40,884 nt of DNA from a virus, in the UHGV virus genome UHGV-2008032. The stretch is one strand, 5' to 3'. A program made the translations under genes and the position numbers. Each line of letters opens with the position of its first letter. Position 1 is the stretch's first letter. This document shows, in pieces, positions 10,358 through 27,319 of the stretch. The notes below the pieces were generated by a model. That model was not told where the DNA came from. It ran no database searches and saw only the letters and a program-made list of their open reading frames with translations.

Positions 10358-10380
10358 AAAAACCCGCCGAAGCGGGTTTG
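10358..10380 (-). terminator. Terminator downstream of cI (U-rich on both strands)
   Basis: Stem AAACCCGC/GCGGGTTT with loop CGAA; U-run follows on the minus strand, 23 nt past the cI stop. Confidence 0.65.
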
Positions 10381-10402
10381 ATGTTTTTAAGTGGCGGGTA
10401 TA

Positions 10403-11044
10403 TCAGGAGAATTTCATCATCATCTGCACTGCTACGCCGATTATCTTGCAGTTGCCGTCGATTGGGATCAACGGATAGGCAGGGTTAAGCCCTTTCAGGT
10501 ATTTGTTACCGCCATCAATGATTAGCTTCTTGAACGTGGCTTCATTAGCATCTGTCAGCTTCGCAACTACCAGGCTTCCATTAACGGCTTCCTTTCCAGT
10601 GTCGAACAGAACCAGCATACCCTCAGGAACGCTAAGGCCGGTAGGAGCTGTCATTGAGTCGCCCTGAACCCTGAGCCAGAAGGCGTCACCGACAACGTGA
10701 CAATCTGATTCATACCACTCATCCACTGCCTGAGGGTTGTACGGCTCTACGGCCTCACTCCATGCACCTGCGCTAACCCAGCTAATCAACGGAAACTTTT
10801 CCCCTGGCTTGTATTGTCCCTGATAGTTGTCGCCAAAAAGCAGTTCTGCCGGAGCGACACCCAAAGCTTTAGCTATTACCTCTGCGTCATCAACACTAAC
10901 GCTTCTGGTTCCTGATTCATAGTTGCCGATCCGAGATTGTGAAGCCCAGCCGCAAAGCTCCGCAAGAGCCTTCTGTGTAAGCCCTTTATCTTCCCGTAAT
11001 CGCTTGATACGCGCGGCGATAGTTTCTGTTCTGTTCATGCGCAT
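10403..11044 (-). CDS. cI: CI-like repressor (HTH plus LexA-like S24 autopeptidase)
   Basis: N-terminal XRE-type HTH; C-terminal GDSM serine and downstream lysine; divergent from cro; -10-like TATAAA abuts the ATG, so the mRNA may be leaderless. Confidence 0.85.
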   Translation of the reverse strand: MRMNRTETIAARIKRLREDKGLTQKALAELCGWASQSRIGNYESGTRSVSVDDAEVIAKALGVAPAELLFGDNYQGQYKPGEKFPLISWVSAGAWSEAVEPYNPQAVDEWYESDCHVVGDAFWLRVQGDSMTAPTGLSVPEGMLVLFDTGKEAVNGSLVVAKLTDANEATFKKLIIDGGNKYLKGLNPAYPLIPIDGNCKIIGVAVQMMMKFS

Positions 11045-11049
11045 TTTAT

Positions 11050-11111
11050 ATCACATTCCGTGGTTTAAGGCTTTACACGATTTGTGTTGACTATCAATCA
11101 CAATGTGTGTT
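11050..11111. promoter_or_regulatory. OR operator cluster (three sites) with PR
   Basis: Sites at 11050..11064, 11075..11089 (reverse) and 11097..11111; PR -35 TTGACT 11087..11092, -10 about 11110..11116; cro ATG at 11149. Confidence 0.55.
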
Positions 11112-11148
11112 TAATAAAGACTGAGTGAACTAGCTCTTAAGGAAACCT

Positions 11149-11364
11149 ATGAACAACATTGCCAACGAACGGAAAAAGCTTGGCATCACTCAATCTGCGT
11201 TAGCAGGCGCGTGTGGCTGGAACCAGTCCCGCTTAGCTAACTACGAGTCAGGTATCCGGACTCCAGATTTAGAGTCGTGCCGTAGCCTGGTAAAGGCGCT
11301 GAATAAATTGGGGAGCAAGACAACGCTAGATGGCTTGTTCCCGCCGCGTAAGAACGCCGCATAA
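11149..11364 (+). CDS. cro: Cro-like HTH repressor
   Basis: 71 aa, XRE-type HTH; SD AAGGA; divergent from cI. Confidence 0.75.
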   Translation: MNNIANERKKLGITQSALAGACGWNQSRLANYESGIRTPDLESCRSLVKALNKLGSKTTLDGLFPPRKNAA

Positions 11365-11370
11365 GCAAAT

Positions 11371-11415
11371 TGCTCTTTAACAGTCATGGTCCTCATTCCC
11401 GCCGAAATGCGGGAA
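11371..11415 (+). promoter_or_regulatory. nutR (boxA TGCTCTTTAACA + boxB hairpin)
   Basis: boxA 11371..11382; boxB stem TTCCCGC/GCGGGAA with loop CGAAAT at 11396..11415; near-identical to nutL. Confidence 0.65.
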
Positions 11416-11472
11416 TACAACGCGCATAAGTTGATGCGCATAACTTCTTATTTGTTAAGGAAATACTTACAT

Positions 11473-11751
11473 ATGGAACTTACAAGTACTCGCAAGAAAG
11501 CGAATGCAATTACAAGCAACATCCTAAATCGAATTGCTGTACGTGGTCAGCGAAAGGTTGCCGACGCGTTAGGGATTAATGAATCGCAAATTTCGCGATG
11601 GAAAGACAGCTTCATCCCCAAAATGGGAATGCTTCTTGCTGTTCTTGAATGGGGTGTTGAAGACGAGGAGTTGGCGGAACTGGCTAAGAAAGTAGCCAGA
11701 ATGCTGACAAAAGAAAAAGCCCCGAAGAACGGCGAATTCTTCGAGGCCTGA
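11473..11751 (+). CDS. cII: CII-like transcriptional activator
   Basis: ...[26 protein letters not shown]... matches the lambda CII helix-turn-helix region as recalled; start could instead be ATG 11434. Confidence 0.65.
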
Positions 11752-11785
11752 TGTAGAAAGACTGGATCAATCCACAGGAGTCATT

Positions 11786-11932
11786 ATGACAAAACAACTC
11801 AGTCCTTACCAGGACAAAATTCACAAACACATACTACGTGATCGCTTCCTGTCCAGCTTCAAGCAGCCTGGTCGATTCCGGGCTGAGTTGGAAAAAGTGA
11901 AGCTGATGCAGAAGGAGAAAGGTCATGAGTAA
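11786..11932 (+). CDS. Small hypothetical protein (48 aa) overlapping the O-like start
   Basis: Hand-translated; AGGAG 5 nt upstream of ATG; 8-nt overlap with the next gene. Confidence 0.3.
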
Positions 11933-12824
11933 CATATCTAATCTAGCCGAAGCCAGAGAGGCCAGAAGGCTACAACAACCGCATCAAAGCAGCGGTAAGG
12001 GGTATGCCTTGCTGCACCGTAAAATTATGGATGTGCCGTTTTACAAGGACGCAGAAGCTGCGCATCTGTGGGTTCACTTAATCCTCAAAGCAAAGCATAC
12101 GCCTGAGTATGTAATGACTGACGCAGGAGAAATTCTGGTAGGCAGAGGGAAGCTACTTGGCGGTAGAAACTCTCTGGCGTTTGAAACAGGACTCAAACCA
12201 GATCGCGTTCAGTACCTGCTTAGAAAGTTCAAAAAACTCGGCATGATTGACTGGGTTTCACACGGTAAATTCTCAGTTTTCTCGGTAGAGAAATATGACG
12301 ATTATCAGTCAAATTTTGTACCAGCAGATTACCAGCAAATTACCACCTCAAAGCCAGCAATACCAATGCCTGCAAGCAATACTGTACCAGCAGATTACCA
12401 GCAAATTACCACAGATAAAGAATATAATAATATTATCTCTAATACTGACGTATTAGAGAGTACCGCAGCAGACAAAAAGTCTGACAAGAAAAAACCTTCC
12501 GTTAGCTGTCAGGATGTTGTCGATGCTTACCACGAAATCCTTCCTGAAGCGCCAAGAATCCGCGCACTGAATGACAAGCGTAAAAACCAGATCCGAACGT
12601 TCTGGCGCAAAGCCGGAGTGATAACCCGCCAGCTTGACGGGCATGGGTTCACGATGCAGGACTGGAGAAATTATTTGAGCTACGTAGGCGAAAATTGCCG
12701 ATGGATGTTCGAAGAGCGTCCAAACCATCAACGCGGAACTGTCTGGCACAAAAAGGGATTTGATTTCCTGCTTAACGATAATACCTACCTGAAAGTTCGT
12801 GAGGGTGAACACGATGACCGATAA
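11925..12824 (+). CDS. Replication initiator, lambda O-like, with internal origin iterons
   Basis: Position after cII and before the helicase; contains direct repeats and an AT-rich block as lambda ori does inside O. Confidence 0.6.
12317..12412 (+). repeat. Origin-like iterons: two perfect 30-bp direct repeats TGTACCAGCAGATTACCAGCAAATTACCAC
   Basis: Copies at 12317..12346 and 12383..12412, each with two ATTACCA sub-repeats; AT-rich stretch 12413..12460 follows. Confidence 0.6.
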
Positions 12825-14250
12825 TTTTTATGCGCCGCCCCATAGCATCGAGGCAGAGCAGGCGGTGATTGGTGGATTGCTTCTGGATGATGACAGCAGT
12901 GAGCGCGTCCAGAAAGTTCTGGCGATGCTGAAGCCTGATTCATTTTACAGCCGACCACACAAAATCATTTTCGAAGAAATAACCAGAATGCACCGTGAGC
13001 AAAAGCCAGTAGATGGCCTGACGCTTTTCGATGAACTGGAGCGTAAATCGTTAACTGTGTCTGTTGGCGGTTTTGCTTATATAGCTGAGATCGCAAAGAA
13101 CACGCCAAGCGCCGCAAACATCGTTGCCTATGCAATGCAGGTTCGCGAAACCGCAATGGAACGCTACGCCATCAACCGCATGACTGAAGCGACGGAATTG
13201 CTCTATTCCCGCAACGGAATGACTGCGACGCAGAAGTACGAAGCTATTCAGTCGATTTTCACGCAACTGACAGACCATGCAAAAACCGGATCGCGTCGCG
13301 GCCTTCGCTCATTTGGTGAGGTTATGGAAGACTGGGTTAGCGACCTTGAGAAGCGATTTGACCCGTCAGGCGAACAACGAGGAATGAGCACAGGGATCCC
13401 ATCGCTGGACAGGATGCTGTCACCGAAAGGTCTGGTGAAAGGCTCTCTGTTTGTCATTGGCGCTCGCCCTAAGATGGGGAAAACGACGCTATACAGCCAG
13501 ATGGCAATCAACTGCGCAGTGCATGAGAAAAAGCCCGCTCTGATGTTCAGCCTTGAAATGCCCGGTGACCAGATACTGGAAAAACTGGTAGGACAGAAGT
13601 CAGGTGTTAACCCGAATATTTTTTACCTTCCGGCGACAAATGACGCTGATGACGGCTATCAGGGTGATTACGATGGTGACTTCAACAGGGCGATCGAAAC
13701 AGCCAATCGCTTGAGTGAAATCGACCTGCTTTACATCGACGACACGCCGGGATTATCTCTGGCTCAAATAGTCAGCGAAAGTCGTCGAATCAAGCGAGAA
13801 AAAGGATGTGTTGGCATGATTCTGGTCGATTACCTGACACTAATGACTGCTGAGAAGGCCGATCGCAACGACCTTGCTTACGGCATGATCACCAAAGGAC
13901 TGAAGAACCTTGCCAAAGAGCTTGATTGCGTTGTTGTGCTTCTGACGCAGCTTAACCGCGCACTGGAAAGCAGAACCAATAAACGCCCATTACCAAGTGA
14001 CTCACGAGATACAGGGCAGATTGAACAGGATTGCGATTATTGGGTGGGGATCCATCGTGAAGGTGCTTTTGATGACAGTGTTCCACCTGGTGAAACCGAA
14101 CTAATCCTTCGTCTCAATCGTCATGGCAATACCGGCACGGTGTATTGCATTCAGGCAAATGGCTCTATTTATGACACAGACCAACAGTCCGCTGAAATGC
14201 GCCGCCGTGAACGCGAGGAACCGCAATCCAAGAAGAAAGGAGGATTCTGA
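12814..14250 (+). CDS. Replicative DNA helicase, DnaB family
   Basis: Walker A GARPKMGKTT; DnaB-like N-terminal domain; ATG 12814 overlaps the upstream stop. Confidence 0.85.
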   Translation: MTDNFYAPPHSIEAEQAVIGGLLLDDDSSERVQKVLAMLKPDSFYSRPHKIIFEEITRMHREQKPVDGLTLFDELERKSLTVSVGGFAYIAEIAKNTPSAANIVAYAMQVRETAMERYAINRMTEATELLYSRNGMTATQKYEAIQSIFTQLTDHAKTGSRRGLRSFGEVMEDWVSDLEKRFDPSGEQRGMSTGIPSLDRMLSPKGLVKGSLFVIGARPKMGKTTLYSQMAINCAVHEKKPALMFSLEMPGDQILEKLVGQKSGVNPNIFYLPATNDADDGYQGDYDGDFNRAIETANRLSEIDLLYIDDTPGLSLAQIVSESRRIKREKGCVGMILVDYLTLMTAEKADRNDLAYGMITKGLKNLAKELDCVVVLLTQLNRALESRTNKRPLPSDSRDTGQIEQDCDYWVGIHREGAFDDSVPPGETELILRLNRHGNTGTVYCIQANGSIYDTDQQSAEMRRREREEPQSKKKGGF

Positions 14251-14334
14251 TGACCATCTACATCACTGAGCTAATAACAGGGGCTATTTACACAGTAGCC
14301 CTTTTTTATTGGATTAAGAACGAGGGGGATCCTG

Positions 14335-14547
14335 ATGGACACCGTTAACGGAATGTGTTCAGACGCACCGCGTGCCAAAAAATGTAAATGCGGAAAATCA
14401 CCGACAATATTCGACATGGAGAACGGGTGCCAAATCTACTGCGCTAACCACGCTGCTGTGGCGGCCGCGAATTATCGCAGTGCGGTAACGGAGTGGAATA
14501 ACCTGAAATCTGTTAGAGAGGGAAGTCATGAAAAAACTAACCTTTGA
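14335..14547 (+). CDS. Small cysteine-rich hypothetical protein
   Basis: 70 aa; GAGGGG upstream of ATG; CKCG...CQIYC pattern. Confidence 0.4.
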   Translation: MDTVNGMCSDAPRAKKCKCGKSPTIFDMENGCQIYCANHAAVAAANYRSAVTEWNNLKSVREGSHEKTNL

Positions 14548-14968
14548 AATTCGATCTCCGGCGCATCAGCAAAACGCTATTCACGCAGTACAGCAAATCC
14601 TTCCAGATCCAACCAAGCCAATCGTAGTGATCATTCAGGAGCGCAACCGTAGCTTAGACCAAAACAGGAAGCTATGGGCCTGCTTAGGTGACGTCTCTCG
14701 TCAGGTTGAATGGCATGGTCGCTGGCTGGATGCAGAAAGCTGGAAGTGTGTGTTTACCGCAGCATTAAAGCAGCAGGACGTTGTTCCTAACCTTGCCGGG
14801 AATGGCTTTGTGGTAATAGGCCAGTCAACCAGCAGGATGCGTGTAAGCGAATTTGCGGAGCTATTAGAGCTTATACAGGCATTCGGTACAGAGCGTGGCG
14901 TTAAGTGGTCAGACGAAGCGCGACTGGCTCTCGAATGGAAAGCGCGATGGGGAGACAGGGCGGCATGA
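14528..14968 (+). CDS. ninB: NinB recombination protein
   Basis: Sequence closely matches lambda NinB as I recall it ([28 protein letters not shown]...). Confidence 0.8.
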
Positions 14969-15147
14969 GACGACAGCGACGAAGTATCACCGACATAATC
15001 TGCGAAAACTGCAAATACCTTCCAACGAAACGCTCCAGAAATAAACGCAAGCCAATCCCGAAAGAATCTGACGTAAAAACCTTCAACTACACGGCTCACC
15101 TGTGGGATATCCGGTGGCTTAGAGAACGTGCGAGGAAAACAAGGTGA
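14965..15147 (+). CDS. ninE: NinE-like protein
   Basis: 60 aa; ATG overlaps the ninB stop (ATGA); resembles lambda NinE. Confidence 0.55.
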
Positions 15148-15314
15148 TTGACCAAAATCGAAGTTACGAACAAGGAAGTGTCGAGCGAGCTTTAACGTGC
15201 GCTAATTGCGGTCAAAAGCTGCATTTTCTGGAAGTTCACGTGTGCTCCGATTGCTGCGCAGAACTGATGAGCGATCCGAATAGCTCAATGTGCGAGGAAG
15301 AAGACGATGAATGA
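15144..15314 (+). CDS. ninF: NinF-like small zinc-binding protein
   Basis: Hand-translated 56 aa; GTG overlaps the ninE stop; ...[22 protein letters not shown]... resembles lambda NinF. Confidence 0.5.
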
Positions 15315-16032
15315 GTTAATAAATGGCAATGCCATCAAAATGACAAGCATTGAAATCGCTGAGTTGGTAGAAAGCCGCCATAGCAATGTAAAAGTATCCA
15401 TAGATAGATTGGTGAAACGTGGCGTTATCAAGCCTCCTGCATTGCAGCACACTAACATAATCAATTATTTAGGTGTTATTACCGGGAAGCGTGATTTCTA
15501 CGTCTTCGAGGGCGAACAAGGTAAGCGAGACAGTATTGTCGTTGTTGCCCAGTTGTCGCCAGAGTTCACCGCTCGCCTTGTTGACCGCTGGCGAGAGCTT
15601 GAAGAAGCTGCGGTTAATATCCCCAAAACGCTACCAGAAGCGTTGCGCCTTGCTGCTGATCTTGCTGAGCAGAAAATGCAACTGGAAAACCAGCTCGCAA
15701 TTGCCGCACCTAAAGTTGAGTTTGCCGATCGCGTTGGCGAGGCCAGCGGAATTTTGATTGGAAACTTTGCAAAGGTTGTCGGTATTGGTCAAAACAAACT
15801 GTTTGCATGGATGCGCGATCACAAAATCCTTATTGCTTCAGGTTCCCGGCGAAATGTGCCAATGCAGGAATATATGGATCGCGGCTATTTCACAGTGAAA
15901 GAAACAGCGGTCAACACAAATCACGGAATACAGATATCGTTCACCACAAAAATCACCGGGCGTGGTCAACAGTGGCTGACCAGAAAGCTGCTCGATAACG
16001 GAATGCTGAAAGTAACAGGGGAGGCTGCTTAA
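15307..16032 (+). CDS. Rha-family regulatory protein with KilAC antirepressor C-terminal domain
   Basis: N-terminal Rha-like region; C-terminal ...FAKVVGIGQNKLFAWMRDHKIL... KilAC-like. Confidence 0.6.
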   Translation: MNELINGNAIKMTSIEIAELVESRHSNVKVSIDRLVKRGVIKPPALQHTNIINYLGVITGKRDFYVFEGEQGKRDSIVVVAQLSPEFTARLVDRWRELEEAAVNIPKTLPEALRLAADLAEQKMQLENQLAIAAPKVEFADRVGEASGILIGNFAKVVGIGQNKLFAWMRDHKILIASGSRRNVPMQEYMDRGYFTVKETAVNTNHGIQISFTTKITGRGQQWLTRKLLDNGMLKVTGEAA

Positions 16033-16322
16033 TGGCTAACCTACGCAAAGAAGCGCGCGGCAGAGAATGCCAGGTACGTATTTACGGCGTATGCAATGGC
16101 AACCCTGAAACTACAGTTCTGGCACATTACCGGATGGCTGGAATTTGCGGAACGGGAATGAAGCCTGACGACCTGATCGGCGCATGGGCTTGTAGTGACT
16201 GCCACGCGGAGATCGACCGACGCACCCATAATCTCGACAACAAAGACGCCAGACTTTACCACCTCGAAGGCGTAATCAGGACGCAGGCGATACTGCTGAA
16301 GGAGGGGAAGATTAAGTCATGA
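16032..16322 (+). CDS. DUF1364 protein (YbcO-like putative nuclease)
   Basis: ...ARGRECQVRIYGVCNGNPETTVLAHYR...CSDCHAEIDRRTH pattern resembles DLP12 YbcO as I recall it; precedes rusA. Confidence 0.55.
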   Translation: MANLRKEARGRECQVRIYGVCNGNPETTVLAHYRMAGICGTGMKPDDLIGAWACSDCHAEIDRRTHNLDNKDARLYHLEGVIRTQAILLKEGKIKS

Positions 16323-16681
16323 ACGAATATCAGTTTGTGCTTCCTTACCCGCCGTCGGTGAACACCTACTGGCGAAGACGGGGAAGCCAATACTACATCA
16401 GCGATAAAGGCCAGAAATACCGAAAAGACGTTCAGCAAATCATCCGCCAACTCAAGTTAGACATTTTCACCAAATCACGACTCCGCATCAAAGTCATCGC
16501 AGACGTTCCAGACTCCCGCCGCCGCGACCTCGACAACATCCTGAAAAGTTTACTCGACTCCCTTATCCACGCCGGATTTGCGGAAGACGACGAGCAATTC
16601 GATGACATTCGCGTAATTCGTGGTGTGAAAGTACCAGGTGGAAGACTTGGAATAAAAATCACCGAACTGGAGAACGCATGA
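16319..16681 (+). CDS. rusA: RusA Holliday-junction resolvase
   Basis: 120 aa; ...YPPSVNTYWRRRG...RRRDLDNILKSLLD... RusA-like. Confidence 0.8.
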   Translation: MNEYQFVLPYPPSVNTYWRRRGSQYYISDKGQKYRKDVQQIIRQLKLDIFTKSRLRIKVIADVPDSRRRDLDNILKSLLDSLIHAGFAEDDEQFDDIRVIRGVKVPGGRLGIKITELENA

Positions 16682-16863
16682 ACGCCACAATTCAAACGAT
16701 ACCAGAGCTTCTTATCCAGACACGAGGCAATCAGACCGAAGTGGCGAGGATGCTTTCCTGTGCAAGAGGAACAGTGCTCAAGTACAACCGAGACAGCAAA
16801 GGTGAGCGTCACGTAATAGTTAACGGCGTCCTGATGGTAACGCCAGGCAAAAAGGGAAGATGA
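16678..16863 (+). CDS. ninH: NinH-like small DNA-binding protein
   Basis: ...YGNQTEVARMLSCARGTVLKY... matches the lambda NinH pattern. Confidence 0.6.
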   Translation: MNATIQTIPELLIQTRGNQTEVARMLSCARGTVLKYNRDSKGERHVIVNGVLMVTPGKKGR

Positions 16864-17381
16864 TGAGCATAAGAGAACTAAACCTCACCAAAGAACAGCA
16901 CGATTGGCTGAATTGCTGGCTTGAACTGTGGGGCGCATGGGTTTATTCAGGTCGTCTGGAAAAGCGCATGAGCAGCGTAATAGCGAAGTTCATGGAGAGC
17001 GTAGAGCCGGGAAGAGTTATGACAAGGCCAATGTGCAATGATGATGATGGAATGTTGATTTCTCAGGTCGTCGATTCCGTCATGTACATTGACAAGAAAG
17101 CCTTTGGCATCCTCCTCAGCTACTACGCTCATGGTTCATCTAAGCGAGCAATTGCATCCTACTATCACGCGACTGCAAAGCCACGCAAGATGTGTGGACG
17201 TGGTGGCGAGGGATGGAGAAAACCTTCACTGGCAACCTGTAGAAACGAAATTGACGACATCCTGAAAGCGTCGTTATTTGTTTTGTACCAGCCAATGCAA
17301 AATGCTTTCAAAATGCGTAAACGTGTTGAGAAAGTTAAGCATGTTGCTGTTAAAAGCCTTGACATGCAATTATCCATTTAG
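16860..17381 (+). CDS. Late-gene antiterminator Q-like protein
   Basis: Last gene of the nin region; ...WGAW...RPMCNDDDGMLI... pattern resembles Q-family proteins; followed by a strong promoter. Confidence 0.6.
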   Translation: MMSIRELNLTKEQHDWLNCWLELWGAWVYSGRLEKRMSSVIAKFMESVEPGRVMTRPMCNDDDGMLISQVVDSVMYIDKKAFGILLSYYAHGSSKRAIASYYHATAKPRKMCGRGGEGWRKPSLATCRNEIDDILKASLFVLYQPMQNAFKMRKRVEKVKHVAVKSLDMQLSI

Positions 17382-17388
17382 CCATAAT
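17359..17388 (+). promoter_or_regulatory. Late promoter candidate (PR-prime-like): TTGACA-18-CATAAT
   Basis: -35 at 17359..17364 inside the Q 3' end; -10 at 17383..17388 just after the Q stop. Confidence 0.55.
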
Positions 17389-17398
17389 TAGAAGGTAA

Positions 17399-17440
17399 GC
17401 TGCCGTTAGTGACTCTTAAGTTGCAATGGTGGCTTTTTTT
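17399..17440 (+). terminator. Possible tR-prime-like terminator (weak hairpin plus T7 run)
   Basis: 9-bp stem with three G-U pairs and a 17-nt loop, then TTTTTTT at 17434..17440. Confidence 0.3.
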
Positions 17441-17598
17441 GTTTGCACAACAGGTAAGAGCATTGAACCCGCAGACCTCGCGGAATTGGTGAAAGGTGCC
17501 GCGCAGTGCTCTTATCGTTGTGGTGAACTCAATGGCGAGCTAGCAGATAGGCGACAGTGAAAATACTAGTCATGTAGCTGACCGCCGCGCGTACTGCA

Positions 17599-17647
17599 AT
17601 CGGCAGCGCACCGATGGAAGCCGGTTCGATTCCGGCCGCCACAACCC
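17599..17647 (+). other. tRNA-like remnant (anticodon-arm-like and T-arm-like hairpins, no acceptor or D arm)
   Basis: ATCGG/CAGCGCA/CCGAT hairpin then GCCGG/TTCGATT/CCGGC T-arm with canonical GGTTCGATTCC loop; no matching 5' half found. Confidence 0.25.
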
Positions 17648-17808
17648 AAACTGAGCCGTAGCCACTGGCTATCCTGAATTCATCAGTGATAGTTACGCTG
17701 CGGCCTTCTACACATGACCTTCGTGAAAGCGGGTGGTTCAATTCTGCTGTCTTCTTCACGTTAAAAGAGGAATTAGGCTTCGAAAATGCAAAAACTTGCA
17801 AAAATGAC

Positions 17809-17836
17809 TTGAAAACGAGTTTTGAAACTGCATAAT
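17809..17836 (+). promoter_or_regulatory. Candidate promoter TTGAAA-16-CATAAT upstream of the cargo leader
   Basis: -35 at 17809..17814, -10 at 17831..17836 in an AT-rich spacer. Confidence 0.35.
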
Positions 17837-17918
17837 TCCTATATGCTCGGACGTCAAAGGCGAAAGAGCTTACCCACCAGCGAAGATGCCTTGTGCGGAG
17901 CGGTGGGAAACACATTCA

Positions 17919-17947
17919 AGCCCTTGCAGAAATGCAGGGGCTTTTTT
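17919..17947 (+). terminator. Strong intrinsic terminator 31 nt upstream of the first cargo gene
   Basis: 10-bp stem AGCCCTTGCA/TGCAGGGGCT with GAAA tetraloop followed by TTTTTT. Confidence 0.7.
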
Positions 17948-17977
17948 ATTGGCTCAGTGCCACCAGGTGAACACCGT

Positions 17978-18529
17978 ATGCACACGGCGATCATTTGCGC
18001 TTCCGGACCTTCCCTCACCCACGACGACTGCCAGAAAGCCATTGGCGCTGGATTACCCGTTATTGCGGTGAATTCTTCATGGCGCGCGGTGCCGGGATGC
18101 TCTCACATTTACGCGGGTGATCTGCGCTGGTGGGATGTGAACATTCCCGCGCTGCCCGATGGCCCCGAACGCTGGTCATGTAACCGGAGAGCACACACCC
18201 GATACGGCGTGAGCCTCTTCCCGACAGATACCAGCGGCACATTCAATTCGGGGCAGAGAGCAATCCTGTTCGCTCACTGGCTGGGTGCCAGTAGCATCAT
18301 CCTTCTGGGCTTCGATTGCTCAATCTCAAACGGTAGTCACTGGCACGGCGATCACACAGTCCTCGATAACCCGACAGCAGCGAACGTAAAGCGCTGGCAT
18401 GGCGAGTTTGCCCGGGTTGCGGCGCAGCTGCGTGGAAGCGTCAATATCATCAACAGCAGCCGCCAGACGGCGCTTAATTGCTTTCGTCGCTTACCTCTTG
18501 AAGCTGCGATCAGCGAGGTTACATGCTGA
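17978..18529 (+). CDS. Cargo protein A: CstII/GT42-like or DUF115-like Rossmann-fold putative glycosyltransferase
   Basis: ATG 17978 with AGGTGA 7 nt upstream, after the terminator; motifs IICASGPSL, VIAVNSS, NSGQRAILFAHWLGASSIILLGFDCS, HWHGDH parallel the GNGPSL and YLSGIDFY layout of CstII-type enzymes. Confidence 0.45.
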   Translation: MHTAIICASGPSLTHDDCQKAIGAGLPVIAVNSSWRAVPGCSHIYAGDLRWWDVNIPALPDGPERWSCNRRAHTRYGVSLFPTDTSGTFNSGQRAILFAHWLGASSIILLGFDCSISNGSHWHGDHTVLDNPTAANVKRWHGEFARVAAQLRGSVNIINSSRQTALNCFRRLPLEAAISEVTC

Positions 18530-19464
18530 ATCCTCCGATTTACATCGATGGCATGCTGGGAATGGGAGATACCATTTACCAGCGCGCTTTCGTCAAACAA
18601 CTGCCTGCTGGGACATTCATTAAGACGGCATGGCCGGAGCTTTACGAAGATCTGCCGGTGAAAGTTGTCCGAAGTGACACCACGCTCAGAACGCAGCGTA
18701 AAAATGAGTTTCGCAGTTCGGCAAAGTTTTATCCGCCGCCATCGCCACGACAGACGAAGCGAATATTTTACGGACCGTATGATCTGCGGCGCGGTTCGAT
18801 ATTTGATGCGATGCGACGCCAGTTCGGCGTAACGCCAGCAGCGCTTGATTTGCCATCCTTTGGCCCGTCGCAGTTTACGCACCAAAAGCCGATCGCCGTT
18901 ATCCGTCCGGCAACGGTTCGTTCTGAATGGCGTAGCGACTCCCGAAACCCTGACCCCGATTACCTCCTGCGCGCATCGAGAATCCTGCGGAAACATTTCT
19001 GCGTGATTAGCGTTGCTGATTTGCAGGACGGGGAAGAGTGGCTGGTGGGTGAAGAACCAGAGGCGGATCTGAAAATGCACGCTGGCGAGCTCAATATCAA
19101 AGAGCTGATGCGCCTGGTTGAGCATGCCGCTGTCGTGGTTACGCCTGTTGGCTGGGCGCTGCCCGCTGCCATTGCGTACAAAACACCTGTTTACGTTGTC
19201 GCTGGTGGGCGCGGTGGGCATAACGCTCCCGAGATAGTCACCGATCCGGCGATGGATTTATCCCGCGTTGGCTGGGCAATCCCGGACAATTATTGTCGCT
19301 GCGAAGCGTGGGATCACCATTGCGACAAACGCATCTTCAACTTTGATTCAAAATTCGAGACATGGCTGAATGAAGTCGTTTTATCAGGAACTGAACAGCG
19401 GGCTGGTATTCCTCCCGGAGCTGGGCATCGGTCGTTATCCGGTTCCGGCATCACGCCCGTATGA
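18523..19464 (+). CDS. Cargo protein B: GT-B fold, GT9 (heptosyltransferase)-like putative glycosyltransferase
   Basis: 7-nt overlap with gene A; N-terminal IDGMLGMGDTIYQRAFVKQL and C-terminal AAVVVTPVGWALPAAIAYKTPVYVVAGG resemble the GT9 layout; Cys/His cluster CRCEAWDHHC. Confidence 0.45.
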   Translation: MLNPPIYIDGMLGMGDTIYQRAFVKQLPAGTFIKTAWPELYEDLPVKVVRSDTTLRTQRKNEFRSSAKFYPPPSPRQTKRIFYGPYDLRRGSIFDAMRRQFGVTPAALDLPSFGPSQFTHQKPIAVIRPATVRSEWRSDSRNPDPDYLLRASRILRKHFCVISVADLQDGEEWLVGEEPEADLKMHAGELNIKELMRLVEHAAVVVTPVGWALPAAIAYKTPVYVVAGGRGGHNAPEIVTDPAMDLSRVGWAIPDNYCRCEAWDHHCDKRIFNFDSKFETWLNEVVLSGTEQRAGIPPGAGHRSLSGSGITPV

Positions 19465-19984
19465 CGAGCAGTATTTCGCGAAGTATCAGCAGCTTGCCGA
19501 CACCGAAACAGGCAGAGCCTTAACGCAATCCCGTATTGAGCTGGTGGCGCGCCATTTTCACGGTCCTGTTCTCGACGTTGGTATCGGTGCCGGTCAGTTC
19601 GTCTCTACCCGACCGGGAACGCTTGGGTATGACATTAATCCGGCTGGTATCGCCTGGCTGAACGAGCGGGGCGCATTCGCTGACCTCTACGCCAGTCAGT
19701 GGCGCGCGCTGACGATGTGGGATGTCCTGGAGCACATCGACGAGCCGGAGCTGGCGGTACAGCAGGCTACAGAGTTTGTTTTCGTGTCGATCCCCATTTT
19801 TACCGATGCCGGAGACATTCTTCGCTCGCACCATTTCAGGAAGAACGAGCACATCTGGTATTTCACTGACGACGGTATTAAGCGCTGGTTTGCAGAGCAG
19901 GGCTTCGAATGCGCTGAACAGAACACAATCGAATGCCAGTTAGGGCGTAAGGGCGTCGCTTCGTACGCTTTCCGCCGCGTTTAG
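19370..19984 (+). CDS. Cargo protein C: class I SAM-dependent methyltransferase
   Basis: Motif I VLDVGIGAGQF, acidic loop YDINPAG, WDVLEHIDEP; no DPPY/NPPW DNA-methylase motif; start overlaps gene B by 95 nt. Confidence 0.55.
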   Translation: MKSFYQELNSGLVFLPELGIGRYPVPASRPYDEQYFAKYQQLADTETGRALTQSRIELVARHFHGPVLDVGIGAGQFVSTRPGTLGYDINPAGIAWLNERGAFADLYASQWRALTMWDVLEHIDEPELAVQQATEFVFVSIPIFTDAGDILRSHHFRKNEHIWYFTDDGIKRWFAEQGFECAEQNTIECQLGRKGVASYAFRRV

Positions 19985-20058
19985 TCCCCTCTTAGCCCAT
20001 TGCATTTGGGTTTATTCCAGTTTCGCACACATCACCCGCAAACAGGCGAGGTCAACCT

Positions 20059-20217
20059 ATGAATAGCTCTCACGGGATTTTTGAACAAACCATGAAATGG
20101 ATCGCGCTATATCTGCCGTCAGTTTACGCCGGGTTATGCGCTCTGGGCATCTCAGCGCTTATCGACATACGCGCAGGGAAGCCGAAACTCTACACCGCCA
20201 CTGGCGCGCTAAATTAA
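20059..20217 (+). CDS. Small hydrophobic protein (52 aa) upstream of the holin
   Basis: Hand-translated; GAGGT 7 nt upstream of ATG; one predicted membrane segment. Confidence 0.3.
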   Translation: MNSSHGIFEQTMKWIALYLPSVYAGLCALGISALIDIRAGKPKLYTATGALN

Positions 20218-20248
20218 ATAGAGCAAATCCCCTTATTGTGGGTAAGAC

Positions 20249-20572
20249 ATGAAGATGCCAGAAAAACATGACCTGTTAGCCGCCATTCTCGCGGCAAAGG
20301 AACAAGGCATCGGGGCAATCCTTGCGTTTGCAATGGCGTACCTTCGCGGCAGATATAATGGCGGTGCGTTTACAAAAACAGTAATCGACGCAACGATGTG
20401 CGCCATTATCGCCTGGTTCATTCGTGACCTTCTCGACTTCGCCGGACTAAGTAGCAATCTCGCTTATATAACGAGCGTGTTCATCGGCTACATCGGTACT
20501 GACTCGATTGGTTCGCTTATCAAACGCTTCGCTGCTAAAAAAGCCGGAGTAGAAGATGGTGGAAATCAATAA
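20249..20572 (+). CDS. S: Class I holin, lambda S-like with dual start
   Basis: [20 protein letters not shown]... closely matches lambda S as I recall it, including the Met-Lys-Met dual-start motif. Confidence 0.9.
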
Positions 20573-21032
20573 TCAACGTAAGGCGTTCCTCGATATGCTG
20601 GCGTGGTCAGAGGGAACTGATAACGGACGTCAGAAAACCAGAAATCATGGTTATGACGTCATTGTAGGCGGAGAGCTATTCACTGATTACTCTGATCACC
20701 CTCGCAAACTTGTCACGCTAAATCCGAAACTCAAATCAACAGCCGCCGGACGCTACCAGCTTCTTTCCCGTTGGTGGGATGCCTACCGCAAGCAGCTTGG
20801 CCTGAAAGACTTCTCTCCGAAAAGCCAGGACGCTGTGGCATTGCAACAGATTAAAGAGCGTGGCGCTTTACCGATGATTGACCGCGGTGATATTCGTCAG
20901 GCAATCGACCGTTGCAGCAATATCTGGGCTTCACTGCCGGGCGCTGGTTATGGCCAGTTCGAGCATAAGGCTGACAGCCTGATTGCAAAATTCAAAGAGG
21001 CTGGCGGAACGGTCAGAGAGATTGAGGTATGA
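20556..21032 (+). CDS. R: Endolysin, lambda R-like lytic transglycosylase
   Basis: [39 protein letters not shown]... closely matches lambda R as I recall it. Confidence 0.9.
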
Positions 21033-21466
21033 GCAGAGTCACCGCGATTATCTCCGCTCTGGTTATCTGCATCATCGTTTGCCTGTCATGGGCTGTTAAT
21101 CATTACCGGGATAACGCCATCGCCTACAAAGCCCAGCGCGACAAAGCCACATCCATCATCGCTGACATGCAGAAGCGTCAACGTGATGTAGCAGAACTTG
21201 ACGCCAGATACACAAAGGAGCTTGCTGATGCTAACGCGACTATCGAAAGTCTCCGTGCTGATGTTTCTGCTGGTCGTAAGCGCCTGCAAGTCGCCGCCAC
21301 CTGTGCAAAGTCAACGACCGGAGCCAGCAGCATGGGCGATGGAGAAAGCCCAAGACTTACAGCAGATGCTGAACTCAATTATTACCGTCTCCGAAGTGGA
21401 ATCGACAGGATAACCGCGCAGGTTAACTACCTGCAGGAATACATCAGGACGCAATGCCTGAAATAA
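21029..21466 (+). CDS. Rz: Inner-membrane spanin Rz
   Basis: N-terminal membrane anchor and coiled-coil periplasmic domain; overlaps the R stop. Confidence 0.85.
21228..21413 (+). CDS. Rz1: Outer-membrane lipoprotein spanin Rz1 (embedded in Rz, +1 frame)
   Basis: ATG 21228 inside Rz; lipobox LVVSAC; proline-rich mature region. Confidence 0.7.
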
Positions 21467-21498
21467 TTTTTTTGCAAATCACAAAGTCAATTTAATGA

Positions 21499-21520
21499 GC
21501 CTCGCGATGCGGGGCTTTTT
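21499..21520 (+). terminator. Intrinsic terminator after the lysis cassette
   Basis: 7-bp stem GCCTCGC/GCGGGGC followed by TTTTT. Confidence 0.5.
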
Positions 21521-21664
21521 ATATCTGAATTTCACAGCGCATCTCACGCGCATATTAACGAGAGCCTTTCAGTAAGCGAGCCTGAGAAATGCCGTTATAG
21601 GTGGCGACCTCTCTCGGGCGGCTTTTCTGTGAGACAGGCTCACTTTCTAAAAGGTAAAGACGCT

Positions 21665-22183
21665 ATGAATCATCAATTGGCTAATCTCGATTTCCGGGAC
21701 ATGGTGGTTGTTTCTGGTGATCGCGTGATCACAACCTCCCGCAAGGTAGCAGCTTACTTCGACAAGCAGCATCACCACATCATTCAGAAAATCGAAAAGC
21801 TAGACTGTTCGGATGAATTTCTAACCAGCAACTTTTCGCGGGTTACCTATGAACACAAGGGTAATCAGTATGTTGAATATGAAATTTCCAAAGACGGCGC
21901 GATGTACATCATCATGTCGTTTACCGGCAAAAAAGCTGCCGCCATCAAAGAGGCGTTTATCAAAGCATTTAATTGGATGCGTGACAGGCTGATGGAGATG
22001 GCTCACTCATACCAAAGAGAGCACAACGAGTTAATGCTGGAGTTCATGAAGGAAAAGGATGTTGCCAGTATGTCAGGACGCTTGCTGAACCGCTGGGGCA
22101 GGATCAAAAAACCGCAACTCATAGCAAGAATCGAAAGGCTTGAGCAGCAGGCGCAAATATCGATCCCCGGACTGCCAAAGTGA
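21665..22183 (+). CDS. Rha-family phage regulatory protein
   Basis: ...SRKVAAYFDKQHHHIIQKI...MSFTGKKAAAIKEAFIKAFNWM... Rha-like; start placed at ATG 21665. Confidence 0.55.
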   Translation: MNHQLANLDFRDMVVVSGDRVITTSRKVAAYFDKQHHHIIQKIEKLDCSDEFLTSNFSRVTYEHKGNQYVEYEISKDGAMYIIMSFTGKKAAAIKEAFIKAFNWMRDRLMEMAHSYQREHNELMLEFMKEKDVASMSGRLLNRWGRIKKPQLIARIERLEQQAQISIPGLPK

Positions 22184-22535
22184 CCATTCCAAAGCCCATC
22201 TACGGGTGGGCTTGATAATGAAACCGTGATTTACATCCCCACAATCCGGGTATGTAAAAGATAGTTCAGGCGAGAACAGATTTAACTAAATCTGTGCACC
22301 ACCAGTTACGGCAGTACCACGAAGCAACCCAAGCCAGTAAGTGGGGAAATAACACTGGCAGCCACTGAAAGATGAACCTCCAGCCTTATGGCAAAAAAGA
22401 TTCTTTGTGGTGGCGGGCTGATGGAAAGACATCGGTTATTGCAGAGACCATTCAATGAGTGGTCTCGACAATGGCTTATACCCTACACGGGATAACTTAA
22501 CTGATATCCCTTTTAACGGATAAACGGAGCCAATA

Positions 22536-23033
22536 ATGGCAAAGCTCACAGACAAACAAGAGCTGTTTGCCCATCCGGATGATGTGTATGTCGGAGAGTG
22601 TGTGATTTATACCGGCTACATAAATAAGCGAGGGTATGGGCAGAAGCACATTTCACGAAAGCCGCACTACGCACATCGAATCGCATACTGCGAAGCTAAC
22701 GGAATTTCGCTAGATAGCATCAAGGACCTGGTTGTTAGGCATAAATGCGATAATCCATCATGCGTGAATCCTGACCATCTGATTATAGGTACTGTCGCTG
22801 ACAATAATCGTGACAGGTCAAGGCGAGGCAGAAACTCATACCCTGACCGTTCAGGTGAAAAGAACGGAATGGCGAAATTAAAAGAGTGCGATGTCATCTG
22901 CATTCGACGTGAATATGTCCGCGGGAGCATTGGTAGGGGGCTTAGATCCTTATCAGAGAAATATGGCGTATCGACGACCATGATTGCTGACATCGTTAAT
23001 TATAGAAATTGGAGCAACGTTTCGGGGGTGTGA
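22536..23033 (+). CDS. HNH endonuclease (terminase-associated)
   Basis: H-N-H motif region ...HRIAYCEANG...RHKCDNPSCVNPDHL...; immediately upstream of the small terminase. Confidence 0.75.
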   Translation: MAKLTDKQELFAHPDDVYVGECVIYTGYINKRGYGQKHISRKPHYAHRIAYCEANGISLDSIKDLVVRHKCDNPSCVNPDHLIIGTVADNNRDRSRRGRNSYPDRSGEKNGMAKLKECDVICIRREYVRGSIGRGLRSLSEKYGVSTTMIADIVNYRNWSNVSGV

Positions 23034-23034
23034 T

Positions 23035-23589
23035 TTGAAACAGCTCACACCTAAGCAGGAACTGTTCTGCCGGGAATATTTAAAAGATTTAAACGCCACT
23101 CAGGCAGCTATCAGGGCGGGTTACAGCGAGAAAACTGCTCGCGCCACTGGTAGCGAGAACCTGTCAAAACCTGACATAGCAGATCGCATTGCTGAGCTAA
23201 AGGCTGAACGCAATGAAGAGGTAGGTATAGACGCTGCCTATGTATTGCGACGGCTGACTGAAATCGATCAGATGGACGTGCTTGACATTCTGCTTGCCAA
23301 TGGCGAACTGAAGCCCATTAAAGACTGGCCTAAGGTATGGCGCACAACGCTATCAGGAATGGATGTCGTCGAGATGGCATCAGCAGATAGTGCTGCTCTC
23401 CTGAAGAAAATCAAATGGCCTGATAAGGTTAAAAACCTTGAGTTGCTCGGGCGTCATGTTTCTGTTCAGGCGTTTAAAGACAATGTCAAAAATGAAGTGA
23501 CTGGTGCTGACGGAGGACCAGTCAGAACAGAAATTACCAACTTAACGCCGGAGCAGGCTGCAGAAGCGTATAAAAAAATGATGGGCTAA
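23035..23589 (+). CDS. Terminase small subunit
   Basis: ...[28 protein letters not shown]... small-terminase-like; TTG start 23035 chosen just after the HNH stop, but TTG 22984 is possible. Confidence 0.6.
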
Positions 23590-23591
23590 GT

Positions 23592-25214
23592 ATGCCGTTA
23601 CCATTTCCCTTCGATTTTAAACATCCTGATTACCAGATGGTTTTTGAATGGCGGATGGAACGCTTACAGCGCATTCGCCAGAACCCTGAAATATTGCCAG
23701 CACTAAAACAGTTTTACCGAACCAACCCGGCTCAGTTCATCATCGACTGGGGCATGACAACGGACCCGCGTAATATTGATTATGGCCTGCCGGTGACCAT
23801 TCCGTTTTTACTCTTCCCTAAGCAGGAGGAGTGGATCCACTGGATTATGGAACGCTGGGGCAATCGGGAGAATGGTATTACCGAAAAATCCCGTGAAATG
23901 GGACTCAGTTGGACCGCGATCGGACTGGCCTGCTCGCTTTGTCTCTTCAACAAAGAAATGGTCATCGGCTTCGGCTCCCGTAAAGAGGAATACGTCGACA
24001 GCACCGGTGACCCGAAGGCGCTGTTCTGGAAGGCGCGAAAGTTCGTGGAAACACTGCCCATCGAGTTTCGTGGTTCGTGGGACGAGAAGAAGCATGCGCC
24101 GTATATGCGCGTTGAGTTTCCAGATACTGGCGCGGTTATCAAAGGCGAGGCTGGCGACAATATCGGACGTGGTGACCGTACCACGCTCTACCTGGTGGAT
24201 GAAGCTGCATTCCTCCAGCGTCCTCTGTTGATTGATGCGGCGCTGTCGCAAACCACCCGTTGCCGTATTGACCTGAGCTCGGTTAATGGCATGGCGAACC
24301 CGTTCGCGCAGAAGCGCCACGGCGGAAAAATACCAGTATTCACGTTCCACTGGCGAGATGACCCGCGCAAGGATGAAGAGTGGTATCGCAGGGAGTGCGA
24401 GAAAATCGACAATCCGGTGGTGGTGGCGCAGGAACTTGACCTGAACTACAGCGCATCTGCGGAAGGCGTCCTGATCCCGTCCGACTGGGTACAGGCTGCC
24501 GTCGACGCGCATATCAAACTTGGTATTCAGCCAACGGGCAAGCGACTGGGCGCGATGGACGTCGCCGACGAAGGCAGGGACAAAAATTCCTTTTCCACCC
24601 GTCATGGCTTCCTCCTGGAGAATGTGCGGGAATGGTCCGGTGTGGGCAGCGACATTTATCAGTCCGTCGAGAAGGTCTTCGGTTTTTGCGAACAGGACAA
24701 CCTCGAAGAGTTTCGCTTTGACGAGGACGGGCTGGGCGCTGGCGTTCGCGGCGATGCACGCGCTATCAACGAACTGCGTAACGCTGCGCGCCGACCGTCA
24801 ATACTCGCCACACCGTTTCGAGGTAGTGGCGCGGTATTTGATCCGGATGATGAAGCTATTCGCGGGGACAACGGGCAAGCCGCCCGCCTGAACAAGGACT
24901 TCTTCGCTAACGCCAAGGCCCAGAGCTGGTGGCGGTTACGTAAACTTTTTCAGAATACCTGGCGCGCCGTGGTTGAAGGTATGGCTTACAACCCGGACGA
25001 AATCATCTCAATCAGCAGTAGCATGGCACTCAAAGATAAACTCATCATCGAGCTTTCGCAGCCGACCTATTCCATTAATGGTGTGGGAAAAATCGTTATT
25101 GATAAACAGCCTGACGGCACCAAGTCGCCGAACCTCGCCGACTCGGTGATGATCAGCTACGCGCCAATGAATTCAGCCCTGAACATCTGGGAGCTGCTAG
25201 GGAGACAGGCCTGA
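23592..25214 (+). CDS. Terminase large subunit
   Basis: 540 aa between small terminase and portal; acidic nuclease-like C-terminal region. Confidence 0.75.
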
Positions 25215-27305: not shown

Positions 27306-27319
27306 ATCGCAGGTAAACC

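What the first reader, a model, noticed from the sequence alone, without database searches (positions are those of the whole stretch)
17809..17977. Promoter, structured leader and strong terminator gating the cargo operon
A TTGAAA-16-CATAAT promoter candidate at 17809..17836 is followed about 85 nt later by a 10-bp-stem GAAA-tetraloop terminator at 17919..17947, only 31 nt before the cargo start. A second helix (CCCACC at 17871..17876 pairing with GGTGGG at 17904..17909) lies just upstream. Either this is a small RNA or attenuator leader, or the cargo is expressed only when Q-modified polymerase reads through, as for stx.
Basis: partly seen in the sequence, partly recalled or inferred. Interest (0 to 1): 0.55.

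Follow-up and report, generated by a model that had tools for sequence, protein, structure and literature searches.

The report
Orphan phage late promoter-terminator cassette
The promoter, folded leader and terminator in front of the cargo genes are the late-gene control cassette of a different lambda-like phage, carried in with the cargo but without its own antiterminator gene; this is an ordinary kind of element in an unusual orphan, tandem arrangement.

Summary
TTGAAA-16-CATAAT lies at 17809..17836. An 11-bp GAAA-loop terminator lies at 17918..17943, with a T-run through 17947. A CCCACC/GGTGGG helix is present, at 17873..17878 and 17902..17907, 2 nt from the stated coordinates.

It is not a cargo-specific leader. 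17733..20212 is a 2.5-kb insert in an HK75-like backbone. It carries the last 32 codons of a foreign Q-like gene, that gene's late promoter, leader and terminator, three cargo genes, and a donor holin stub.

The window keeps only a stub of that gene. Its own Q21-family Q (16860..17381) has its own PR' and tR' 450 nt upstream.

Most likely (inferred) the orphan promoter makes only a terminated RNA of about 105 nt. The cargo would then be expressed when polymerase modified by the resident Q reads through both terminators. The stx-like reading is therefore partly right; the attenuator reading is not supported. No experiment or RNA data was available.

The parts
16860..17381 (+). Resident antiterminator Q gene (Q21 family), HK75-like
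   Evidence: Pfam PF06530 E=1.4e-25. PF06530 is the Q21 family according to PMC9388147. 98.5-99% identical to HK75 Q.
17359..17388 (+). Resident late promoter PR' (TTGACA-18-CATAAT)
   Evidence: Best promoter match in 19 kb, 11 of 12. The homologous site is annotated as pR' in HK75.
17397..17440 (+). Resident tR' terminator hairpin and U-tract
   Evidence: RNA fold dG -18.4, z = -3.0. The homologous HK75 feature is annotated as terminator Tr'.
17737..17835 (+). Relic 3' end (last 32 codons and stop) of a foreign Q-like gene (phrog_753 / DUF1133-like); it lies under the orphan promoter
   Evidence: tblastn matches only residues 196-227 of the Omnitron protein, 87.5% identity, E=4e-13. The HK75 homology ends at 17736.
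17809..17836 (+). Orphan late promoter: -35 TTGAAA, 16-nt spacer, -10 CATAAT
   Evidence: The same architecture occurs in 133 related loci. Other variants (TTGATT, TTGCAA; TATATT, TACATT, TATGAT) keep the register.
17842..17847 (+). TATGCT, a conserved -10-like hexamer at -1..+5; candidate sigma-dependent pause element
   Evidence: TAYGCT is present in almost every variant of the family and is CATGCT in ST64B. The resident PR' has TAAGCT at 17396..17401. Pausing itself was not tested.
17843..17869 (+). Invariant 27-nt start of the transcript; the RNA folds as a hairpin from +3 (17845..17869)
   Evidence: One copy in the window, none expected by chance. Exact copies in 96 IMG/VR stretches and in 8 species-representative genomes of 7 named genera plus one Enterobacteriaceae MAG. 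All 11 sequence variants fold as a hairpin from +3.
17873..17907 (+). Second helix of the leader (CCCACC ... GGTGGG), specific to this leader type
   Evidence: Present in the MFE fold. There are no compensatory changes among 16 close variants, and 4 of them break one pair.
17918..17947 (+). Intrinsic terminator (tR'-equivalent of the foreign cassette)
   Evidence: 11-bp stem, GAAA loop, T-run. dG -19, z = -4.5. 78 of 85 related leaders have a terminator within 300 nt.
17978..19984 (+). Cargo trio: 183-aa MptE-like/DUF115-like protein, 313-aa unknown protein, 204-aa SAM methyltransferase
   Evidence: Pfam and PHROG hits. The trio always lies between a Q-type cassette and a holin gene.
20059..20212 (+). 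Relic 5' part of the donor phage's holin gene; right end of the 2.5-kb insert
   Evidence: Window 17733..20212 aligns to L004 4001..6480, where the holin gene starts at 6327. HK75 homology resumes at 20212.

Best explanation
The feature is the late-gene control cassette (PR'-type promoter, initial transcribed region, tR'-type terminator) of a lambdoid phage lineage. That lineage's antiterminator is a divergent relative of phage 21 Q with the same fold (phrog_753 / DUF1133-like, 204-227 aa).

Recombination placed a 2.5-kb piece of such a phage (17733..20212) into an HK75-like backbone, between the resident tR' and the resident holin gene. The piece carries the last 32 codons of the foreign Q gene, the cassette, three passenger genes and a holin stub.

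In its native setting (inferred from the known Q mechanism) the promoter fires constitutively and polymerase pauses close to the start. The cognate Q then loads and carries polymerase through the terminator into the passenger and lysis genes.

In this window the cognate Q is missing. The orphan promoter should therefore yield only a terminated RNA of about 105 nt (17843 to about 17947). The cargo should be transcribed mainly from the resident PR' (17359..17388), after the resident Q makes polymerase resistant to both terminators.

Shown: the mosaic structure, the conservation, the synteny and the fold match.
Inferred: the transcription start at 17843, pausing, constitutive activity, terminator efficiency, and read-through by the resident Q.
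For: - Mosaic boundaries. HK75 identity of 98% stops at 17736 and resumes at 20212. 17733..20212 matches prophages L004 (94.7%) and L006 (99.7%).
- Native context. In Omnitron, LHM10-1, 730V1 and EC2001 the order is NinB, DUF1364, RusA, a 227-aa protein, this cassette, then tRNA-Asn or the cargo, then holin.
- Linkage. 88 of 89 distinct loci with the 27-nt core have the Q-like gene directly upstream.
- Promoter. Eight or more sequence variants keep the -35, the 16-17-nt spacer and the -10 in register with the start. The promoter and spacer type track the Q subfamily, while the first 27 nt are identical between subfamilies whose proteins are 26-31% identical.
- Terminators. 78 of 85 leaders have one within 300 nt.
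- Required elements. Q needs a -10-like element in the initial transcribed region and a binding site between -35 and -10 (PMC6606751). A conserved TAYGCT lies at -1..+5.
- Constitutive activity. PR' is reported as always active and terminated in lysogens, giving a short RNA (PMC7547250).
Against: - No transcript data, so the start site, promoter strength and termination are predictions.
- The count of promoter-like matches in the region is not above chance.
- The protein model is of moderate confidence (mean pLDDT 65), and the Foldseek E-values are weak (0.07 to 0.7).
- The pause consensus TNYG is not evident at the expected distance from TATGCT.
- Complete identity of 27 nt across very divergent Q proteins is more than a sigma pause element alone would require. 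Part of the element's role is therefore unexplained.
- The host could carry a second prophage that supplies the cognate Q in trans.
Confidence: 0.78

Rival explanations
1. The cassette is kept because its short terminated transcript is a trans-acting regulatory small RNA, comparable to StxS made from the Stx-phage PR'. The orphan state would reflect selection for the RNA rather than hitch-hiking.
For: - The predicted RNA has the usual sRNA shape: a 5' hairpin, a second hairpin, an 11-nt single-stranded A/U-rich linker, and a strong terminator with a U-tail.
- The promoter-to-terminator unit is kept intact at three different left junctions: native, the window at 17733, and E. coli I3 at 17809.
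- The short PR' transcript of Stx phages is a functional sRNA (PMC7547250).
Against: - The leader body downstream of +27 is replaced by at least six unrelated versions among relatives.
- Helix 2 shows only pair-breaking changes among 16 close variants.
- No Rfam family reaches threshold.
- Only 2 of 91 arrangements are orphans, and the window's junction is found nowhere else. Retention may therefore simply reflect a recent event and close linkage.
- This reading does not exclude the best explanation.
Confidence: 0.15
2. It is an attenuator or riboswitch-like leader that senses a signal and controls the cargo operon from its own promoter.
For: - A promoter, a structured RNA of about 75 nt and a terminator lie 30 nt ahead of the cargo start.
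- The whole leader folds better than shuffles, z = -3.9.
Against: - The leader travels with the Q-like gene, not with the cargo (88 of 89 loci).
- It precedes tRNA-Asn plus holin in Omnitron and EC2001.
- The cargo has a different leader in L195 and L196.
- The MFE and centroid folds are identical, with three separate hairpins and no antiterminator alternative.
- No leader or riboswitch family in Rfam reaches threshold; the only such match, Phe_leader, scores 16.6 bits against a gathering score of 55 (E = 6.8).
Confidence: 0.04
3. It is an inert recombination scar. The promoter and terminator are non-functional leftovers, and the 27-nt core is conserved only as a recombination linker between phage modules.
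For: - The same core joins different promoters to different leader bodies, so crossovers do occur there.
- The cassette diverges from L004 about as much as the whole 17733..20212 insert, which is mostly cargo sequence (93.5% vs 94.7%).
Against: - The promoter, core and terminator in the window match the commonest native architecture (TTGAAA-16-CATAAT, the exact 27-nt core, and a terminator hairpin whose pairing is intact); within them only the discriminator just upstream of the start and one pair-preserving base at the foot of the terminator stem differ among native copies.
- An intact sigma-70 promoter and an 11-bp terminator are expected to work in any context.
- Compensatory changes in the 5' hairpin point to function rather than mere homology.
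Confidence: 0.08

Closest known systems
Phage 21 (and HK75-type) Q21-family late cassette: Q, PR' with Q-binding element and -10-like pause element, tR'
   Same: - Gene order: Q-like gene, promoter that overlaps or follows its stop codon, short leader, intrinsic terminator, then late and lysis genes.
- A -10-like hexamer lies at the start of the transcript: TATGCT here, TAAGCT in the resident Q21-type PR'.
   Different: - The protein is outside Pfam PF06530 and is longer (204-227 aa against about 150-170 aa).
- No TGAGCA direct repeats, which form the 21Q binding site, are seen in the spacer.
- The first 27 nt are invariant and form a conserved 5' hairpin. I found no description of such a feature for lambda or phage 21 in the papers read.
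- In this window the cassette lacks its Q gene.
Stx-phage PR'-tR'-stx arrangement and the StxS short transcript
   Same: Passenger genes sit directly behind the late terminator and ahead of the lysis genes. A constitutive late promoter would give a short terminated RNA in lysogens (PMC7547250).
   Different: - No sequence similarity to it was found (no Rfam match).
- The cargo is a putative transferase/methyltransferase trio, not a toxin.
- Two promoter-terminator sets lie in tandem, and only the upstream one has its Q.
Lambda PR' and 6S RNA
   Same: A constitutive late promoter gives a short terminated RNA unless Q is present. A sigma-dependent promoter-proximal pause element is involved.
   Different: Lambda Q belongs to an unrelated fold family (PF03589). 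The sequence and the leader length differ.
Morons of lambdoid phages (a gene flanked by its own promoter and terminator)
   Same: Extra genes inserted between conserved phage modules, with a promoter upstream.
   Different: The terminator lies upstream of the genes, not downstream. The promoter belongs to a Q system rather than to the cargo.

Membership tests
Q-dependent late regulatory cassette (PR' / qut / tR') of lambdoid phages | Lies directly downstream of the Q gene and upstream of the lysis and late genes | tested here: met
   In relatives, 88 of 89 distinct loci have the Q-like gene ending 10 or 61-62 nt before the core, with a holin gene downstream. In the window only the last 32 codons of that gene remain, but the position between a Q gene and the holin gene is kept.
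Q-dependent late regulatory cassette (PR' / qut / tR') of lambdoid phages | Sigma-70 promoter | tested here: met
   TTGAAA-16-CATAAT. Eight or more sequence variants in relatives keep both hexamers, the spacing and the distance to the conserved start. Activity was not measured.
Q-dependent late regulatory cassette (PR' / qut / tR') of lambdoid phages | -10-like element in the initial transcribed region that causes sigma-dependent pausing | tested here: inconclusive
   A conserved TAYGCT (A at position 2, T at position 6) lies at -1..+5 in nearly all variants. Pausing cannot be tested here, and no clear TNYG pause motif is seen at the expected distance.
Q-dependent late regulatory cassette (PR' / qut / tR') of lambdoid phages | Q-binding element between -35 and -10 that is recognised by the cognate Q | not testable with these tools
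   Indirect only. The spacer sequence differs between the two protein subfamilies and tracks them perfectly, as expected for a protein-specific site.
Q-dependent late regulatory cassette (PR' / qut / tR') of lambdoid phages | Intrinsic terminator shortly downstream of the promoter | tested here: met
   Window: 11-bp stem plus T-run, about 76-105 nt after the predicted start. Relatives: 78 of 85 leaders have one within 300 nt.
Q-dependent late regulatory cassette (PR' / qut / tR') of lambdoid phages | A cognate Q antiterminator encoded next to it | tested here: not met
   Window: only residues 196-227 of the phrog_753 protein are encoded, and there is no other copy. Relatives: the protein is a 21Q structural homologue. 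The cassette is therefore an orphan member.
Known small-RNA or cis-regulatory RNA families (Rfam 15) | Match to a curated covariance model at its gathering score | tested here: not met
   No hit at gathering score in the whole window. Only sub-threshold matches driven by the terminator at E of 0.19 or more.
StxS-like trans-acting sRNA from a late promoter | A stable short transcript that binds Hfq and pairs with target mRNAs | not testable with these tools
   The architecture is compatible, but there are no expression, binding or target data.
Transcription attenuator or riboswitch for the cargo | Mutually exclusive terminator and antiterminator folds, and a stable association with the regulated genes | tested here: not met
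   Three independent hairpins, with the MFE equal to the centroid. The leader is linked to Q, not to the cargo.
Moron | A gene flanked by its own promoter upstream and its own terminator downstream | tested here: not met
   The terminator lies between the promoter and the genes. The scan (10000..29000) shows no terminator-like site on the + strand between the cargo end (19984) and the one at 21497, beyond the resident lysis genes.

The most novel reading that the evidence does not exclude
The invariant 27-nt start is identical across Q-like proteins that are only 26-31% identical, and across several genera. It folds as a hairpin from +3 with compensatory changes in distant variants. It may act as RNA: a nascent-RNA signal needed to load this divergent Q21-fold antiterminator, or one that acts on RNA polymerase itself. 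That would be a hybrid between DNA-loaded Q and RNA-loaded N/put systems. Alternatively, the orphan promoter may be retained to make a regulatory sRNA in lysogens.
Probability: 0.15. Interest if true: 0.7.

Novelty: new member of a known kind. Interest (0 to 1): 0.36.

Why it matters
- It corrects how the cargo is read. The three passenger genes are late-operon passengers, like stx. They should be silent in the lysogen and switched on by the resident Q after induction. They do not form an operon with its own sensor.
- It shows a tandem arrangement of two late promoter-terminator sets, only one of which has its Q. That arrangement predicts a constitutive short RNA of foreign origin.
- It defines the likely control site of an uncharacterised branch of the Q21 fold family (phrog_753 / DUF1133-like). 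The site has a sharply bounded, invariant 27-nt element that could be tested directly in vitro.

Tried and rejected
- Rfam at gathering score on the whole window, and at E up to 10 on 17300..18100. Only sub-threshold matches driven by the terminator, plus a tRNA-like relic.
- ARAGORN found no tRNA in the window.
- Pfam, NCBIfam and PDB sequence searches with the Omnitron 227-aa protein, and a PDB search with a family profile. Nothing useful. The link to Q came only from PHROGs, from a few members that reach DUF1133, and from fold comparison.
- Leaderless small ORF. The predicted transcript starts with AUG at 17843 and is in frame with cargo gene 1 (ORF 17822..18529). Many relatives have a 12-14-codon basic ORF. 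Rejected as a conserved feature because distant variants start with ACG or have a stop after 4 codons.
- Covariation in helix 2. Close variants show no compensatory change. Other leader types carry a GGUG.../...CACC helix at the same place, but they cannot be aligned with this one.
- The exact junction sequence (17718..17744) was searched in genome contigs and viral contigs, with no match. The window's source and the spread of this arrangement remain unknown.
- Literature search for a described late promoter, or an sRNA, for ST64B or DUF1133-type Q. Only an HHpred-based label was found.

Full report
**1. What is in the sequence**

The stated elements are present.
- TTGAAA (17809..17814), a 16-nt spacer, then CATAAT (17831..17836).
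- A terminator with an 11-pair stem (17918..17928 / 17933..17943), a GAAA loop, and a T-run through 17947. It folds at -19 kcal/mol, z = -4.5.
- The helix CCCACC/GGTGGG exists, but at 17873..17878 and 17902..17907. That is 2 nt off the stated positions on each arm.
- The cargo ATG is at 17978, with AGGTG 8 nt upstream.

The whole 108-nt stretch from 17843 folds into three separate hairpins (dG -42.7, z = -3.9, MFE equal to the centroid).

A consensus match alone is not significant here. A 19-kb scan finds fewer promoter-like sites than the shuffles do. However, the two best + strand sites are this one and the site at 17359..17388.

**2. The surroundings**

The window is a lambdoid phage.
- 16860..17381 encodes a Q protein of Pfam PF06530. 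That is the Q21 family according to PMC9388147.
- The region is 98.5-99% identical to phage HK75. There the homologous sites are annotated as pR' (window 17359..17388) and Tr' (window about 17397..17440).
- The resident Q therefore already has its own late promoter and terminator, about 450 nt upstream of the finding.

**3. The finding lies in a foreign insert**

- HK75 homology stops at 17736 and resumes at 20212, 37 nt before the resident holin gene.
- The 2.5 kb in between aligns with prophages of E. coli 730V1 (94.7%), LHM10-1 (82.5%) and I3 (99.7% from 17809).
- The first 214 bp (17733..17946) also match Citrobacter phage Omnitron at 93.9%.
- In those genomes the 214 bp begin inside a 227-aa gene. 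That gene occupies the Q position: NinB, DUF1364, RusA, this gene, then tRNA-Asn or the cargo, then holin.
- The window keeps only its last 32 codons, 17737..17835, and the stop codon lies inside the -10 hexamer.
- The right end of the insert carries the first 154 nt of the donor's holin gene, 20059..20212.

**4. What the 227-aa protein is**

- It has no Pfam, NCBIfam or PDB sequence match of its own.
- It matches phrog_753 "anti-termination protein Q-like" at E = 1e-57.
- Some close relatives reach Pfam DUF1133 just above the cut-off. The resident Q21-family Q also hits DUF1133.
- An AlphaFold model was built from 31 homologues. It has mean pLDDT 65 and is confident in the C-terminal half.
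- With Foldseek, phage 21 Q chains are the top eight PDB hits (probability 0.93-1.0, weak E-values).

I conclude that it is a divergent antiterminator with the Q21 fold. This rests on prediction, not on experiment.

**5. The cassette belongs to that protein**

The first 27 nt after the predicted start are ATGCTCGGACGTCRAAGGCGAAAGAGC (window 17843..17869).
- They occur in 96 IMG/VR stretches.
- They occur in prophages of the species-representative genomes of Pantoea, Klebsiella, Kosakonia, Serratia, Citrobacter, Trabulsiella and Apirhabdus, and of an Enterobacteriaceae MAG.
- Of 89 distinct loci with enough upstream sequence, 88 have a phrog_753 gene ending 10 or 61-62 nt before the core. The one exception is E. 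coli I3. The window is a second exception.

The proteins fall into two subfamilies that are only 26-31% identical to each other.
- Subfamily A always has TTGAAA-16-CATAAT.
- Subfamily B has TTGATT-16-CATAAT or TATATT, or TTGAAA-17-TACATT.
- The 27-nt core is identical in both.

An unbiased set of loci was also found through the protein rather than the core. In it, 57 of 79 have the exact core. More distant relatives (49% identity and below, including ST64B and ENT47670) have variants.

Downstream of the core there are at least six unrelated leader bodies. 78 of 85 distinct leaders have an intrinsic terminator within 300 nt.

This pattern matches what is expected for a Q-utilisation region: a -35/-10 promoter, a protein-specific spacer, a conserved initial transcribed region, and then a terminator. 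According to PMC6606751, Q needs a -10-like element in the initial transcribed region and a binding element between -35 and -10.

**6. Details of the conserved start**

- A hexamer TAYGCT (A at position 2, T at position 6) spans -1..+5 in nearly all variants.
- The resident Q21-type PR' has TAAGCT at the equivalent place.
- This is a candidate sigma-dependent pause element. Pausing was not tested, and the TNYG pause motif is not obvious at the expected distance.

All 11 sequence variants of the start fold as a hairpin that begins at +3.
- There are compensatory differences: outer pair C6-G against U6-A, and inner pair C13-G17 against U13-A17.
- There is a U-G to C-G change.
- This favours an RNA-level constraint, or at least a hairpin-level one.
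- Its role is unknown. Possibilities include part of the loading signal, or a 5' stem-loop that protects the long late mRNA.
- Leader bodies are shuffled between subfamilies at this core, so it also serves as a recombination joint.

Helix 2 of the window-type leader has no covariation support. Among 16 close variants the common substitutions fall in unpaired positions, one keeps a pair, and one (in four sequences) breaks a pair.

**7. The cargo is a late-operon passenger**

- The trio is a 183-aa MptE-like/DUF115-like protein (PHROG label "alpha-2,3-sialyltransferase"), a 313-aa unknown protein, and a 204-aa SAM methyltransferase.
- It is rare, present in 9 of 5,426 complete E. coli genomes.
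- It always lies between a Q-type cassette and a holin gene.
- In strains DX6 and 25-06685 an 80%-identical trio follows a Qlambda-family Q (PF03589). That Q has its own, unrelated leader and terminator.
- Conversely, the leader studied here precedes tRNA-Asn plus holin in Omnitron and EC2001.

The leader is therefore not a sensor for the cargo.

**8. How it most likely works in this window (inference)**

- The orphan promoter matches the native ones in both hexamers and spacing. Like other late promoters, it should be constitutive (PMC7547250).
- Without its Q, transcripts should stop at 17947, giving an RNA of about 105 nt.
- After induction the resident Q should load at 17359..17388. Polymerase would then pass the resident tR' and the foreign terminator, so the cargo, lysis and late genes are expressed together.
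- The two promoters share no spacer similarity, so cross-activation of the orphan promoter by the resident Q seems unlikely.
- A second prophage in the host could supply the cognate Q in trans. That cannot be checked here.

**9. Rivals**

- A trans-acting sRNA function is possible and compatible with the above. The evidence for it is only the architecture and the retention of the unit at three different left junctions.
- An attenuator or riboswitch reading is contradicted by the linkage data.
- An inert scar is unlikely, because the promoter hexamers, the core and the terminator are intact. Still, the junction is unique and may be recent.

**10. Verdict**

The element is a late promoter-terminator cassette of a known kind. 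It belongs to an uncharacterised branch of the Q21 fold family, and here it is displaced from its Q and placed in tandem behind another Q cassette.

The finding as written is of modest interest. The invariant 27-nt start with its conserved 5' hairpin is the part that deserves an experiment.

Noticed in passing
window 17589..17647 (+): A tRNA-like relic. It matches the acceptor and T-arm parts of the tmRNA model at 20 bits (E=4.5e-6), below the gathering score, and ARAGORN calls no tRNA. Related phages carry tRNA-Thr and tRNA-Asn between Q and the lysis genes, so this looks like a decayed tRNA gene within the HK75-like spacer.
   Followed up: partly
window 17978..19984 (+): The cargo trio is a 183-aa MptE-like/DUF115-like protein (PHROG label alpha-2,3-sialyltransferase), a 313-aa protein with no Pfam family (phrog_6804), and a 204-aa SAM methyltransferase. 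Genes 2 and 3 overlap by 95 nt. The trio is rare (9 of 5,426 E. coli genomes) and always sits between a Q cassette and a holin gene. Its function is unknown.
   Followed up: partly
window 20059..20217 (+): This 52-codon ORF is the truncated 5' part of the donor phage's holin gene. It lies just upstream of the intact resident holin gene (20249..20572) and marks the right recombination junction at about 20212.
   Followed up: yes
window 17843..18529 (+): The predicted transcript begins with AUG at +1. That AUG is in frame with cargo gene 1, with no stop codon, so the frame runs through the terminator. Many relatives instead have a 12-14-codon basic ORF (MLGRQRRKS...). Distant variants lack the AUG, so this is probably coincidental.
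   Followed up: partly
L006 (E. coli I3) 3503..4164: A second, independent orphan copy of the same cassette plus cargo, this time behind a Qlambda-family Q. The junction lies exactly at the -35 hexamer and shortens the spacer to 15 nt.
   Followed up: partly
L185 (Salmonella phage ST64B) about 2060..2190: ST64B gene sb49 belongs to the same Q-like family. It is followed by TTGAAA-16-TATGAT, a 5' hairpin (GCUU-GGCA-AAGC) and a terminator. Published Salmonella transcriptomes could therefore test whether such a short RNA is made in lysogens.
   Followed up: no
window 17529..17915 (-): A 128-codon ORF on the opposite strand spans the whole promoter and leader region. It has no Pfam match and crosses the mosaic junction, so it is most likely spurious.
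   Followed up: partly
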